DNA of 63,738 bases, the filler included, from Collodictyon triciliatum (taxonomy: Eukaryota): NCBI GenBank assembly GCA_043381765.1. It is 17 parts of 17 records of this genome, joined end to end, with 100 filler letters (N's around TTAATTAATTAA, not from the genome) between each part and the next. Parts side by side here need not be neighbours in the genome. Positions count along the whole stretch, not along the records: positions 15,289 to 19,008 come from JBHJMP010006963.1; 16 more parts are not named here. One strand, 5' to 3'. Below the pieces are notes generated by a model. The model worked only from the letters and a program-made list of their open reading frames with translations. It was not told where the DNA came from and searched no databases. The translations under genes were made by a program, and so were the position numbers. This document shows, in pieces, positions 15,289 to 18,200 of this stretch; position 1 is the stretch's first letter; every line of letters starts with the position of its first letter.

Positions 15289-18200
15289 TTCCAACTGTGT
15301 TTTTGATCATGCAAATATGAAAGGCGTTAATTTTGGTCGCTTGCCTTTGTTTTTGGGACATACAGGTTATGTCAAGAGTGTTTACAGCATTCAAGGACCG
15401 AATGGTGAAAATTGGCTGGCTTCTGGAAGTCTTGATAAAACAATACGTATTTGGGATGTAGCCACAGGAAACCAGATCAAAACATTAAAAGGGCATACAG
15501 GTGGTGTCAAGAGTGTTTGCAGTATTAAAGGACCGAATGGTGAAAATTGGTTGGCTTCTGGAAGCCGTGATGAAACAATACGTATTTGGGATGTAGCCAC
15601 AGGAAACCAAATCAAAACATTAGAAGGTCATACAAAGCCAGTCAATAGTGTTTGCAGTATTCAAGGGCCGAATGGTGAAAATTGGCTGGCTTCTGGAAGT
15701 CGTGATAAAACAATACGTATTTGGGATATAGCCACTGGAAACCAAATCAAAATATTAGAAGGTCATGCAGATGAAGTCAACAGTGTTTGCAGCATTCCAG
15801 GACCGAATGGTGAAAGTTGGCTGGCTTCTAGAAGCATTGATAACACAATACGTATTTGGGATATAGCCACAGGAAACCATATCAAAACATTAGAAGGACA
15901 TACAAAGCCAGTCTGGAGTGTTTGCAGCATTCAAGGACCGAATAGTGAAAATTGGTTGGCTTCTGGAAGTCTTGATAAAACAATACGTATTTGGGATATA
16001 GCCACAGGAAACCATATCAAAACATTAGAAGGTCATGCAGATGATGTCTATAGTGTTTGCAGTATTCAAGGACCGAATGGTGAGAAATGGCTGGCTTCTG
16101 GAAGCCGTGATGAAACAATACGTATTTGGGATGTAGCCACAGGAAACCAAATCAAAACATTAGAAGGTCATACAGATGCTGTTTATAGTGTTTGCAGCAT
16201 TGAAGGACCGAATGGTGAAAAGTGGCTAGGTTCTGGAAGTCGTGATGAAACAATACGTATTTGGGATGTATCCACAGGAAATCAAATCAAAACATTAGAA
16301 GGTCATACAAAGCCAGTCATGAGTGTTTGCAGTATTCAAGGACCGAATGGTGAAAACTGGCTGGCTTCTGGAAGTTATGATAAAACAATACGTATCTGGG
16401 ATGTATCCACAGGAAGCCAAACCAAAACATTAGAAGGTCATATAGATGAAGTCGAAAGTGTTTGCAGTATTCAAGGACCGAATGGTGAAAATTGGCTGGC
16501 TTCTGGAAGTCGTGATAGAACAATACGTATTTGGGATGTGAGCACTGGAAATCAAATCAAAACATTAGAAGGTCATTCAAGGGATATCACCAGTGTTTGC
16601 AATATTCAAGGACCGAATGGTGAAAAGTGGCTGGCTTCTGGAAGTGGTGAAAAGTGGCTGGCTTCTGGAAGTGGTGATAAAACAATACGTATTTGGGATA
16701 TAGCCACAGGAAGCCAAATCAAAACATTAGAAGGTCATAGAGGTCGGGTCTATACTGTTTGCAGTATTCAAGGACCGAATGACGAAAAGTGGCTGGCTTC
16801 TGGAAGTTATGATAAAACGATACGCATTTGGGATATAGCCACTGGAAACCAGATCAAAACATTAGAAGGTCATTCAAGGGATGTCTATAGTGTTTGCAGT
16901 ATTAAAGGACCGAATGGTGAAAAGTGGCTGGCTTCTGGAAGTGGTGATAAAACAATACGTATTTGGGATGTAGCCACAGGAAGCCAAATAAAAACATTAG
17001 AAGGCCATTCAGAGCCAGTCACCAGTGTTTGCAGTATTAAAGGACGAAATGGTGAAAAGTGGCTGGCTTCTGGAAGTGATGATAGGACATTACGTATTTG
17101 GGATGTAGCCACAGGAAACCAAATCAAAACACAAGAGGGACATACAAGTGGTGTCATAAGTGTTTGCAGTTTTCAAGGACCGAATGGTGAAAATTGGCTG
17201 GCTTCTGGAAGTTGGGATAAAACAATACGTATTTGGGATATAGCCACAGGGAGCAAAATCAAAATATTAGAAGGTCATACATATGCTGTCAGGAGTGTTT
17301 GCAGTATTCAAGGACTGAATGGTGAACATTGGCTGGCTTCTGGGAGTATGGATAAAACAATACGTATTTGGGATATAGCCACAGGAAACCAAATCAAAAC
17401 ATTAGAAGGTCATACAGATTGGGTCATGAGTGTTTGCAGCATTCAAGGACCGAATGGTGAAAATTGGTTGGCTTCTGGAAGTCATGATGAAATAATACGT
17501 ATTTGGGATATAGCCTCGAGAAACCAAATACACAGCATGCAGATATCAGAAGTGACTTACAATATAAAGAGCCAATTGGTCATGAAGGATAAACCCGATG
17601 AAGTCATCGCATTATTCAACAAAACAAGTGATGCGATGAATCTGATTGATACGAGCAGAATAATGAACGTGAGAACTGTTCGGATTATCGGCCCAAGAAC
17701 ACTGGAAGCTGTGAATACTCGTATAAACAGAGCTGAACTGAATGCGATGAATAAGAAATTATTCCTGCAAGAGGGTGCTGCTTCCTTTGATGCTGAGTTT
17801 GTTACGTATTGTGAGCAGGGTAAATTCACCAAGTTCCAGGCTCAAATGATGGCTGAATGCTATGAGAATGGATGGGGTGTTGAGAAGGGCATCGGGAAGG
17901 CTGCTGAATGGCTAAGAAAGACTGAAAGCTTTGAAAAACTGAAGGAACTCGCCCGACAAGGCTCAGAAGAGGCATTCAGTGTTTTGATAAAAATGGCTGA
18001 AACAAAGGAAGATGGAAAATATAAATATGAGCGCGCTCTTTCAATCATCGTCGAGTGTTATGAAAATGGATGGGGTGTTGAGAAAGACATTCCATTATCT
18101 ATGAAGTGGAGAATATTTGGTGGAAAGACTGAAAATTTTGATAAACTGAAGCAACTCGCACAACAAGGCTCAAAGGAGGCATTCAGCGTTTTAAAAGAAA

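What the first reader, a model, noticed from the sequence alone, without database searches (positions are those of the whole stretch)
15289..17530. WD40 array with an almost invariant scaffold and hypervariable surface positions (HET-E-like receptor)
Seen: 16 near-identical 135-bp units in which variation is concentrated at GH-x-x-x-V-x (TGY/K, TGG/K, TKP/N, ADE/N, TKP/W, ADD/Y, SRD/T, RGR/Y, SEP/T, TYA/R, TDW/M) and SGS-x-D-x (L, R, I, Y, G, D, W, M, H). Blocks such as TKP, AD and SRD recur in non-adjacent units. Known: equivalent top-face positions diversify in Podospora HNWD (HET-D/HET-E) NLR-like receptors via concerted evolution and repeat shuffling. The upstream pentapeptide ANMKGVNFG and downstream NKKLFLQEGA resemble linkers of NACHT-pentapeptide-WD40 proteins. 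Inference: a diversifying non-self sensor in a protist, with the NTPase domain lost beyond the contig edge.
Basis: partly seen in the sequence, partly recalled or inferred. Interest (0 to 1): 0.72.

Follow-up and report, generated by a model that had tools for sequence, protein, structure and literature searches.

The report
Hypervariable WD40 sensor of STAND protein
This small contig carries the tail end of a large receptor-like gene: sixteen nearly identical WD40 blades that differ mainly at a few binding-face residues, followed by Sel1 repeats, a pattern known from fungal and bacterial immune-type receptors and seen here in a different eukaryotic gene family.

Summary
One frame is open from the contig's 5' edge (15290) to a stop at 18520 and holds 16 WD40 units of 45 codons (15356-17542). 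The units average 85% nucleotide identity. Six of the 45 columns (GH-xxx-V-x and SGS-x-D-x) carry 46% of all amino-acid differences.

These columns lie in the D-A loop and the B-C turn, the same face of the propeller. They match the x-V-x and x-D-x pairs that are positively selected in Podospora HNWD repeats. Pooled dN/dS there is about 2 to 2.8, against 0.33 for the scaffold. Support for dN/dS above 1 is moderate (p about 0.02-0.05).

The first 24 residues align with the last pentapeptide repeats of homologues.

The only true homologues of the tail are transcripts of the protist Diphylleia rotans, plus one unnamed fragment. The full-length ones read STAND NTPase (NACHT-like), pentapeptide, 45-residue WD40 units, tail, Sel1. 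So an upstream NTPase is inferred, not seen.

This is not a HET-E family member. It is a new variant of a known kind, which this scan has already met in bacteria. The organism and the function are untested.

The parts
15290..15355 (+). Last two pentapeptide-type repeats and the short link to the first blade (SNCVFDHANMKGVNFGRLPLFL). The frame is open to the contig edge, so the gene is cut here.
   Evidence: The frame is open from the edge. Pfam Pentapeptide gives only E 0.038 on these 24 residues. The segment aligns with the pentapeptide-to-WD40 junction of 8 of 8 homologues, with 11 of 24 residues identical to the D. rotans protein P0220.
15356..17542 (+). Sixteen WD40 units of 45 codons with high internal conservation. 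Hypervariable codons are 3, 4, 5, 7, 26 and 28 of each unit, counting GH as 1 and 2.
   Evidence: Units and columns. Pfam WD40, 16 stretches. Identity and dN/dS. AlphaFold2 model with pLDDT 80. Model residues 374-744 cover all 318 residues of the 8-bladed Tako8 (Z 27, rmsd 1.8 A).
16622..16675 (+). Perfect in-frame 27-bp tandem duplication inside unit 10 (GEKWLASGS twice). It lengthens the A-B loop and B strand region of blade 10.
   Evidence: Tandem Repeats Finder: period 27, 100% matches. The two copies are identical. The model is disordered here, with pLDDT under 50 at residues 444-452.
17543..17818 (+). Conserved post-WD40 tail module (…IIGPRTLEAVNTRINRAELNAMNKKLFLQEGAASFDAEFVTYCEQ…). It matches no Pfam family.
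   Evidence: Pfam finds only Sel1 further downstream. An exhaustive HMMER search of 1.84 billion proteins matched P0199 at E 4e-18 and P0182 at E 4e-16. BLASTP to P0182 gives 39% identity over 171 residues, E 2e-34. Alignment A1.
17819..18517 (+). Sel1-like repeat domain. There are four ECYxNGWxVEK anchors (at 17855, 18053, 18266 and 18479) spaced 66, 71 and 71 codons apart. The second and third units are 91% identical in DNA. The stop codon is at 18518-18520.
   Evidence: Pfam Sel1 E 1.3e-13, 3 stretches. Tandem Repeats Finder: period 213 at 17917-18513. Unit comparison.
18521..19008 (+). 3' flank. An AATAAA lies about 20 bases after the stop, followed by an A+T-rich stretch and a (TTTTC)n microsatellite that runs to the contig end.
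   Evidence: Sequence read. Tandem Repeats Finder: period 5, 51 copies, 18745-19008.

Best explanation
The contig holds the 3' 3.2 kb of a gene for a large STAND-type (NACHT-like) NTPase. The protein's C-terminal half reads: pentapeptide repeats, a double eight-bladed WD40 propeller (16 blades), a conserved tail, then Sel1 repeats.

Shown:
- the domain order from the pentapeptide stub onward;
- homology of the stub, the 45-residue blade type and the tail to a gene family known from Diphylleia rotans transcripts;
- the high internal conservation of the blades;
- the clustering of variation in the D-A loop and B-C turn, on one face of the propeller.

Inferred:
1. The missing 5' part encodes more pentapeptide repeats and a STAND NTPase, as in the homologues.
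2. The array was built or homogenised recently by unequal recombination or gene conversion among 135-bp units. All of its testable blades form one clade, while the blades of the D. rotans paralogues are old and interleaved.
3. The binding-face residues are kept different by diversifying selection.
4. By analogy with HET-E/HET-D, Apaf-1 and bacterial WD40 STAND proteins, the propeller pair is the ligand sensor. Ligand binding would release the NTPase for oligomerisation and signalling.
5. The Sel1 module is an extra protein-docking surface of unknown partner.
For: Anatomy.

Family:
- A 'longer proteins' search found D. rotans P0182 (2619 aa) and P0183 (names).
- An exhaustive search with the 124-residue tail and first Sel1 repeat gave 105 hits at E <= 0.001. 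Only 10 of them (P0199, P0182, P0200, P0210, P0183, P0220, P0229, P0230, P0219, P0207) have a best stretch starting before query residue 80. I examined six: P0199, P0182, P0200, P0183 and P0220 (all D. rotans) and the unnamed fragment P0210. Two more, P0229 and P0230, proved to be Sel1-only proteins. P0219 and P0207 were not examined. The remaining 95 hits match the Sel1 end only.
- P0182 reads CH, DUF4062, a STAND NTPase at residues 618-845, TPR_12, pentapeptide, 45-residue WD40 units, tail, one Sel1. Its NTPase scores just under the Pfam cut-offs: nSTAND1 26.0 bits (cut-off 27.1), NACHT 24.4 (26.7), NPHP3_N 22.3 (24.8).
- P0199 reads NACHT (24.6 bits, cut-off 26.7), pentapeptide, WD40, tail, several Sel1.
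- The junction aligns in 8 of 8 homologues. Four of these (P0174 of Reticulomyxa filosa, P0120, P0093, P0156) list PF05729 NACHT among their precomputed domains.

Internal conservation:
- Mean blade identity is 0.77 here, against 0.30-0.49 in four D. rotans proteins.
- All 15 testable units form one clade (support 0.885).

Selection:
- NG86 dN/dS is 2.8 for the six hypervariable columns and 0.33 for the other 39.
- In neutral simulations that also pick the six most variable columns after the fact, 5 of 300 reach the observed ratio. None has more than 2 columns with pN >= 0.5, against 4 observed.
- Counting changes on a tree gives omega 1.8-2.1 at those codons, p 0.02-0.05.

Structure:
- Strands fall at columns 6-13, 19-25, 29-34 and 40-45. 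All six variable columns therefore lie in the D-A loop, the first residues of strand A, or the B-C turn.
- Units 9-16 superpose on a complete 8-bladed propeller.

Literature: HNWD codons 7/9 and 25/27 lie in the same two loops (passages of PMC1805685).
Against: - No NTPase is seen. The contig ends 66 bases before the first blade, and tblastn with four NACHT regions found nothing elsewhere in the window.
- The NTPase matches in the two D. rotans proteins are all slightly below Pfam's gathering scores.
- Support for dN/dS above 1 is modest. On the tree count, only 1 of the 6 columns (column 26) is individually significant, and in only one of the two trees. The units are paralogous repeats subject to recombination, so no single tree is right. 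Gene conversion can lower synonymous divergence.
- The shared blocks do not clearly show shuffling. Units 10 and 12 look like a whole-unit duplication. The correlation between binding-face similarity and scaffold similarity is weak (rho -0.16, p 0.08).
- There is only one allele and one locus, so repeat-number polymorphism, exchange between paralogues and expression are all untested.
- GC3 of this gene (0.30) differs from kinase genes on neighbouring contigs (0.56-0.79). The source organism of this contig is therefore not settled.
Confidence: 0.62

Rival explanations
1. Recent neutral amplification. A single blade was amplified to 16 copies not long ago. The variable columns are simply the least constrained surface positions drifting at the neutral rate (omega about 1), and no diversifying selection or sensing role is implied. 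This is the 'recently amplified propeller' view.
For: Highly repetitive propellers arise continuously in all lineages and many soon decay (passages of PMC9218822). On the tree count, individual columns are not significant in 11 of 12 tests (6 columns, 2 trees). Neutral simulations with after-the-fact choice of columns already give a ratio of 1.83 on average, against 2.68 observed.
Against: The pooled tests still favour omega above 1 (p 0.017 to 0.05). Four columns have pN >= 0.5, while 300 neutral simulations never gave more than two. Synonymous divergence is sizeable (dS about 0.23), so the amplification is not very recent, yet the scaffold stays under purifying selection (0.33) and the frame is intact over 1076 codons. 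The variable columns are exactly the two loop pairs that are selected in HNWD.
Confidence: 0.2
2. A housekeeping scaffold, not a non-self receptor. The gene is an NPHP3/NWD1-like STAND protein (CH, DUF4062, NTPase, TPR, WD40) with a conserved cellular role, for instance in cilia or the cytoskeleton. The repeat homogeneity would then be incidental.
For: The full-length homologue P0182 carries CH, DUF4062, NPHP3-type TPR and NPHP3_N-like matches. That nephrocystin-3 is a ciliary protein is recalled, not tested here. The WD40 arrays of the D. rotans paralogues are ordinary diverged repeats (identity 0.30-0.49).
Against: In D. rotans the same C-terminal module is joined to two different NTPase halves: P0182 against P0199, the latter with a NACHT of the Reticulomyxa/Mortierella type. 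It also exists as several paralogues. Both features fit modular receptor families rather than single-copy housekeeping genes. The focused variation on the binding face is not expected of a conserved scaffold.
Confidence: 0.13
3. Assembly artefact. The number, order or content of blades is a chimera made by the assembler from reads of several near-identical loci.
For: Short-read assemblies of highly conserved WD40 arrays omit or create repeats in Podospora (passages of PMC12222747). The contig is only 3.7 kb and breaks just upstream of the array. The perfect 27-bp duplication in unit 10 could be an error.
Against: The longest exact repeat inside the array is between 81 and 90 bases. Every 99-mer of the array is unique within the contig, and 97% of 55-mers are. 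Reads of 100 bases or more can therefore order these units. The frame has no stop or shift over 16 units.
Confidence: 0.05

Closest known systems
Diphylleia rotans STAND, pentapeptide, WD40, tail, Sel1 proteins (EukProt EP00002 P032243 = P0182, P031968 = P0199; also P0183, P0220, P0200)
   Same: Same 45-residue blade with the long A-B loop (GPxGExWLASGS). Same pentapeptide-to-blade junction (up to 11 of 24 identical). Same post-WD40 tail (39-47% identity, E 4e-18 to 2e-34). Sel1 repeats after the tail.
   Different: Their blades are diverged (mean identity 0.30-0.49, against 0.77 here). P0182 has one Sel1 repeat and P0199 many, against three to four here. Their N-terminal halves are known; ours is not. 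They come from a different species: the tail is only about 40% identical.
Podospora anserina HNWD/NWD family (HET-E, HET-D, HET-R)
   Same: WD40 array with high internal conservation behind a STAND NTPase. Hypervariable x-V-x and x-D-x pairs in the D-A loop and B-C turn, with dN/dS above 1. A double propeller is proposed for reactive alleles (passages of PMC1805685, PMC4986451 and PMC12222747).
   Different: Their units are 42 residues, against 45 here. They have no pentapeptide repeats, tail or Sel1 domain. Pfam reported no HET domain in the N-terminal 1654 residues of one full-length homologue. Exchange between paralogues, repeat-number polymorphism and a known ligand (HET-C) are documented there and untested here.
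NACHT, pentapeptide, WD40 proteins of Reticulomyxa filosa (ETO05269.1 = P0174), Mortierellomycota (P0120, Dissophora) and their endobacteria (Mycoavidus P0093 and P0106; Glomeribacter P0156)
   Same: Pentapeptide repeats lead straight into the WD40 array with a G-[VI]-x-F-G junction. A C-terminal L-L-x-x-x-G-A motif follows the array. The arrays of P0120, P0093, P0106 and P0156 are also internally conserved (0.68-0.83), and their most variable columns lie at the equivalent positions.
   Different: Their units are 42 residues. The protein ends soon after the L-L-x-x-x-G-A motif, with no Sel1 domain. The similarity of the tails is not significant pairwise.
WRAP / recently amplified WD40 propellers (Npun_R6612 of Nostoc punctiforme, PDB 2YMU)
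   Same: 2YMU is the best Foldseek match of the model (E 1e-30, 31% identity). It is a highly repetitive 14-blade array forming two propellers at the C-terminus of a STAND ATPase (passages of PMC9218822).
   Different: WRAP is bacterial, has 7+7 blades that are almost identical, and has no synonymous changes. Here the array is 8+8 with dS about 0.23 and focused amino-acid variation.

Membership tests
D. rotans-type STAND, pentapeptide, WD40(45), tail, Sel1 family (undescribed; defined here) | 45-residue WD40 unit with the extended A-B loop GPxGExWLASGS | tested here: met
   All 16 units carry it. P0182, P0183, P0199 and P0220 have a modal unit length of 45. Unit-by-unit BLASTP to P0182 gives 43-54% identity.
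D. rotans-type STAND, pentapeptide, WD40(45), tail, Sel1 family (undescribed; defined here) | Conserved post-WD40 tail (IIGPRxLEGGDxQ…GL…NKxLL…GAASFDxDFVxYCE…KFTKFQA) | tested here: met
   E 4e-18 (P0199) and 4e-16 (P0182) in a search of 1.84 billion proteins. BLASTP E 2e-34. Alignment A1 has 14 invariant columns.
D. rotans-type STAND, pentapeptide, WD40(45), tail, Sel1 family (undescribed; defined here) | Sel1 repeat(s) directly after the tail | tested here: met
   Pfam Sel1 E 1.3e-13 here. Sel1 is also present in P0199, and the first Sel1 repeat is aligned in P0182, P0210 and P0220.
D. rotans-type STAND, pentapeptide, WD40(45), tail, Sel1 family (undescribed; defined here) | STAND (NACHT-like) P-loop NTPase upstream of the pentapeptide repeats | not testable with these tools
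   The contig ends at 15289. No whole genome is held. No NACHT-like match exists elsewhere in the window. Two metagenome scans found no close relative.
Podospora HNWD (HET-E/HET-D) family | WD40 repeats with high internal conservation (about 85% protein identity) and hypervariable top-face codons under positive selection | tested here: met
   Protein identity is 0.77 and nucleotide identity 0.85, slightly under the 85% criterion of PMC4986451. The variable columns are equivalent to HNWD codons 7, 9, 25 and 27. dN/dS is about 2 to 2.8.
Podospora HNWD (HET-E/HET-D) family | 42-residue unit and sequence kinship of the repeats with HNWD repeats | tested here: not met
   The unit is 45 residues. 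Proteins annotated HET-E-1 match the array at 42-43% identity, no better than many bacterial WD40 proteins.
Podospora HNWD (HET-E/HET-D) family | N-terminal HET domain and NACHT domain | not testable with these tools
   The 5' part of the gene is absent. For P0182, Pfam lists CH and DUF4062 and no HET. For P0199, only NACHT/nSTAND3 and pentapeptide matches are listed.
Podospora HNWD (HET-E/HET-D) family | Concerted evolution between paralogous loci and repeat-number polymorphism between strains | not testable with these tools
   Only one locus and one allele are available. Within the locus, all 15 testable units form one clade. That fits concerted evolution, but it fits a single recent amplification equally well.
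NACHT, pentapeptide, WD40 proteins (Reticulomyxa / Mortierellomycota / Mycoavidus type) | Pentapeptide repeats immediately before the first blade, with a G-[VI]-x-F-G junction | tested here: met
   GVNFG is at residues 12-16. It aligns with 8 of 8 homologues, 6-11 of 24 residues identical. Pfam Pentapeptide alone is weak (E 0.038).
NACHT, pentapeptide, WD40 proteins (Reticulomyxa / Mortierellomycota / Mycoavidus type) | Protein ends shortly after an L-L-x-x-x-G-A motif that follows the array | tested here: not met
   The motif is present (LFLQEGA), but about 245 further residues of Sel1 repeats follow.
WRAP / recently amplified WD40 propellers (Pereira and Lupas criterion) | WD40-superfamily propeller with median blade identity above 60% | tested here: met
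   Mean pairwise blade identity is 0.77. The criterion is quoted from PMC9218822. 2YMU is the best Foldseek match.

The most novel reading that the evidence does not exclude
A non-fungal eukaryote, possibly a free-living protist related to the lineage of Diphylleia, runs a fungal-style rapid-diversification system. It would be an NLR-like STAND receptor whose 8+8 WD40 sensor is kept homogeneous by repeat exchange while its binding face is driven apart by selection. A recently duplicated C-terminal Sel1 module would act as an integrated docking or decoy domain behind the sensor. That would make repeat-shuffling immune or allorecognition receptors a general eukaryotic invention or inheritance, not a speciality of fungi and multicellular bacteria.
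Probability: 0.3. Interest if true: 0.65.

Novelty: new variant of a known kind. Interest (0 to 1): 0.45.

Why it matters
Highly conserved WD40, TPR or ANK arrays with hypervariable binding-face residues are the hallmark of fast-evolving NLR-like receptors in fungi. They have also been noted in multicellular bacteria. In one survey of highly repetitive propellers, fungi made up 84% of the eukaryotic cases (PMC9218822).

This locus shows the same regime in a different gene family: 45-residue blades, a conserved tail and Sel1 repeats. The only recognisable relatives come from the protist Diphylleia rotans, where the same sensor module is joined to two different NTPase halves.

If the full gene and its polymorphism were recovered, it would give a test case for whether sensor diversification by repeat exchange exists in protists. 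It would also show what an extra domain placed after the sensor does.

As it stands, this is a well-documented new example and architecture. It is not a new principle, and this scan has already recorded the same kind in two bacterial genomes.

Tried and rejected
- The window's own genome is not held, so the 5' end could not be extended and paralogues could not be counted.
- Exact look-up of the ORF, in both the Met-start and edge-start versions, found neither in the protein collection.
- A near-length search with the tail and Sel1 region gave only distant Sel1 proteins, at most 31% identity. The near-length search with the array gave generic WD40 arrays, at most 51% identity. The real homologues appeared only among longer proteins and in the exhaustive search.
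- The tail is not significantly similar, pairwise, to the tails of the 42-residue NACHT, pentapeptide, WD40 proteins (BLASTP and phmmer). The shared L-L-x-x-x-G-A motif is therefore a lead only.
- Sequencing runs: only small shares of the sampled words (at most 0.11). Expression and assembly were therefore not checked with reads.
The scan with the tail found no relative. The scan with the junction and four blades found 16 loci, all generic WD40 relatives at 26-46% identity; these were not pursued.
- The ESM Atlas search of the tail gave only Sel1-type clusters, with scores of 0.89-0.90.
- The Sel1-like ORF on another contig (40863-41606) is unrelated to this C-terminus.
- The earlier-notes index holds nothing for this genome and nothing for the word query.
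- Literature searches found no paper that describes a NACHT, pentapeptide, WD40, Sel1 architecture: of the 11 papers listed, none was opened and none concerns it by title or abstract. None of the 10 papers listed for Diphylleia rotans plus NACHT contains the organism's name. Only listings were seen. Supplements were not read, so the supplementary tables of PMC4986451 and PMC9218822 may list non-fungal eukaryotic cases that I could not see.
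Full report
**What the window is.** The 63,738 bases are not one locus. They are 17 contigs of about 3.7 kb, sorted by size and joined by N44-TTAATTAATTAA-N44 spacers. The finding sits on the contig 15289-19008. No whole genome is held for the window. Everything upstream of 15289 is therefore simply missing, and the neighbouring stretches of the window are not genomic neighbours.

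**The observation.** One reading frame is open from the first bases of the contig (15290) to TAG at 18518-18520, 1076 codons. Splitting at the GH dipeptides gives 16 units between 15356 and 17542.
- Fifteen units are exactly 45 codons. Unit 10 has 54, because 27 bases (GEKWLASGS) are duplicated perfectly in tandem at 16622-16675.
- All 16 units match Pfam WD40.
- Mean pairwise nucleotide identity is 0.854, and 0.905 without six codons.
- Fifteen of 45 columns never change in protein. Columns 4, 5, 7 and 26 (counting GH as 1 and 2) hold 7 to 9 different residues, and columns 3 and 28 hold 5 and 4.
- Those six columns hold 585 of the 1268 pairwise amino-acid differences, 46% against 13% expected if spread evenly.

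**Where the variable residues lie.** I predicted residues 1-860 with AlphaFold2 on a 30-sequence alignment (mean pLDDT 80, pTM 0.50).
- In each unit the four strands fall at columns 6-13, 19-25, 29-34 and 40-45.
- Columns 3-5 and 7 therefore lie in the D-to-A loop and the first turn of strand A. Columns 26 and 28 flank the invariant Asp of the B-C turn.
- Both loops are on the same face of a WD40 propeller. This is the face stated for HET-E in PMC1805685, where codons 7 and 9 (around the conserved codon 8) and 25 and 27 (around codon 26) are the selected ones (passages). Our x-V-x and x-D-x pairs are the direct equivalents.
- The three-residue difference in spacing is explained by the longer A-B loop of the 45-residue unit.
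- Model residues 374-744 (units 9-16) superpose on all 318 residues of the eight-bladed designed propeller Tako8 (Z 27, rmsd 1.8 A). The model therefore has an 8-bladed second propeller, and by subtraction an 8-bladed first one. The relative position of the two is not reliable.
- The 27-bp duplication is modelled as a disordered loop (pLDDT under 50 at residues 444-452).

**Selection.**
- Nei-Gojobori counting over all unit pairs gives pS 0.273 and pN 0.537 (dN/dS 2.8) for the six columns, against 0.33 for the other 39.
- The columns were chosen for being variable, so I simulated neutral evolution (omega 1) on the scaffold tree, scaled to the observed dS, and picked the six most variable columns each time. 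The mean ratio was 1.83 against 2.68 observed. Five of 300 runs reached the observed value. No run had more than two columns with pN >= 0.5, against four observed.
- Counting changes on a parsimony reconstruction gives omega 1.8-2.1 for the six columns pooled (p 0.023 and 0.048 on two trees) and 0.34 for the rest. Only one of the six columns (column 26, on one of the two trees) was individually significant.
- The honest reading is this. The scaffold is clearly constrained. The six columns evolve at least as fast as neutral. Diversifying selection is moderately, not overwhelmingly, supported.
- Recombination among units, which violates the single-tree assumption, cannot be corrected for with one allele.

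**What flanks the array.** The 22 residues before the first blade are only a weak Pfam pentapeptide match (E 0.038). They nevertheless align with the last two pentapeptide repeats and the junction of all eight homologues compared, with 11 of 24 identical to D. rotans P0220.

After unit 16 come about 90 residues with no Pfam family. Then comes a Sel1 repeat domain (Pfam E 1.3e-13) with four ECYxNGWxVEK anchors. Its second and third 71-codon units are 91% identical in DNA.

**Relatives.** Searches among proteins of similar length found only generic WD40 arrays (at most 51% identity) and distant Sel1 proteins. A full-length protein would be over 2000 residues, so I searched the longer class. That found two Diphylleia rotans transcriptome proteins (names).

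An exhaustive HMMER search with the tail and first Sel1 repeat gave 105 hits. Only ten have a best stretch starting before query residue 80.
- Five D. rotans proteins and one unnamed 183-residue fragment share the tail.
- Two of the ten proved to be Sel1-only proteins.
- Two were not examined.
- The other 95 hits match only the Sel1 end.

P0182 (2619 aa) reads CH, DUF4062, a STAND NTPase at residues 618-845, NPHP3-type TPRs, pentapeptide repeats, about 20 blades of the same 45-residue type, the tail and one Sel1 repeat. Three overlapping NTPase models (nSTAND1, NACHT, NPHP3_N) each score 1 to 3 bits under their cut-offs. A GxxGxGKS P-loop is visible in the sequence.

P0199 (2169 aa) reads NACHT (24.6 bits against a cut-off of 26.7), pentapeptide, WD40, tail and several Sel1 repeats. 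Its NACHT and the AAANAITIL lead-in to the pentapeptide repeats resemble those of the 42-residue NACHT, pentapeptide, WD40 proteins of Reticulomyxa filosa, Mortierellomycota and their endobacteria.

The same C-terminal sensor module is thus combined with two different NTPase halves in one species. That is typical of modular receptor families. From this I infer, and cannot show, that the missing 5' part of our gene encodes a STAND NTPase.

**What is special here within the family.** Blade identity is 0.77 in the window, against 0.30-0.49 in four D. rotans proteins. In a tree of 45 blades, all 15 testable window blades form one short-branched clade (support 0.885), whereas the D. rotans blades of different paralogues interleave. 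This is the signature of concerted evolution or of a recent amplification. With one locus the two cannot be separated.

Units 10 and 12 look like a whole-unit duplication: five of six binding-face residues are shared and they have the closest scaffolds. The three TKP units share four of six binding-face residues, but their scaffolds are no closer than average. That is compatible with block exchange but does not prove it.

**Is the array an assembly artefact?** Short-read assemblies of such arrays are unreliable in Podospora (passages of PMC12222747). Here the longest exact repeat inside the array is between 81 and 90 bases, and every 99-mer is unique in the contig. Ordinary reads could therefore order these units, unless other loci share them.

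**Organism.** Unknown. The closest homologues are from a protist, and the 3' flank has an AATAAA and a long (TTTTC)n microsatellite. These fit a eukaryote. However, GC3 of this gene (0.30) differs strongly from kinase genes on other contigs of the window (0.56-0.79). The assembly may therefore be heterogeneous. Two metagenome scans found no close relative.

**Comparison with the known.** The phenomenon is well described: highly conserved WD40 blades behind a STAND NTPase, with diversifying binding-face positions.
- It is known for the Podospora HNWD family and for fungal NLRs generally.
- It has been noted in multicellular bacteria (bioRxiv 2020.01.06.895854, passage).
- It has been surveyed as 'recently amplified propellers', where fungi make up 84% of the eukaryotic cases (PMC9218822, passages).
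- The best structural match of the model is the Nostoc WRAP propeller 2YMU.
- Earlier notes of this scan record the same kind in two bacterial genomes.

What is new is the gene family and its architecture, namely 45-residue blades, a conserved tail and a recently duplicated Sel1 module after the sensor, together with its occurrence outside fungi and bacteria. My searches found no paper on such an architecture (listings only).

It is not a member of the HET-E family. The unit length and repeat kinship fail, and the HET and NACHT domains cannot be tested.

**Verdict.** This is a good new variant of a known kind. Its function is inferred by analogy only.

Noticed in passing
window 1-63738: The window is a chain of 17 contigs of 2.6-3.7 kb, sorted by length and joined by N44-TTAATTAATTAA-N44 spacers. 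Neighbouring features in the window are therefore not genomic neighbours.
   Followed up: yes
window 16622-16675: A perfect in-frame 27-bp tandem duplication inside WD40 unit 10 inserts a second GEKWLASGS. AlphaFold2 models it as a disordered loop. It could be a real slippage event or an assembly error.
   Followed up: partly
window 7970-10568, minus strand: On another contig, an LRR open frame (9810-10568) lies next to a protein kinase open frame (7970-9130) on the same strand. This may be one LRR-kinase gene. Its GC3 is 0.56-0.63, against 0.30 for the WD40 gene.
   Followed up: no
window 28305-29441, minus strand: A protein kinase open frame has GC3 0.79 on a contig of 46% G+C, very unlike the WD40 contig. 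The assembly may mix genomes, or it may have strongly heterogeneous composition.
   Followed up: no
window 18745-19008 and 19109-19214: A long (TTTTC)n microsatellite ends the WD40 contig, and a T-rich (TTTTTTCT)n run starts the next contig. Contig breaks seem to fall in simple repeats.
   Followed up: no
window 17917-18513: The Sel1 domain has itself been duplicated recently. Two 213-bp units are 91% identical, so repeat expansion at this locus is not limited to the WD40 array.
   Followed up: partly
P0182 and P0199 (Diphylleia rotans transcripts): One species joins the same pentapeptide, WD40, tail, Sel1 module to two different N-terminal halves. One is CH, DUF4062, an NPHP3-like NTPase and TPRs. 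The other is a NACHT of the Reticulomyxa/Mortierella type behind an unknown 460-residue N-terminus.
   Followed up: partly
P0093, P0106, P0156 (Mycoavidus, Glomeribacter) and P0120 (Dissophora): NACHT, pentapeptide, WD40 proteins of Mortierellomycota and of their bacterial endosymbionts have internally conserved 42-residue blades (identity 0.68-0.83). Their most variable columns include positions equivalent to those seen here. The architecture is shared between host fungi and endobacteria.
   Followed up: no
P0153 (unnamed, 1665 aa): A WD40-array protein from an unnamed NCBI assembly ends in a Sel1-like repeat but lacks the tail module. WD40 followed by Sel1 may have arisen more than once.
   Followed up: no
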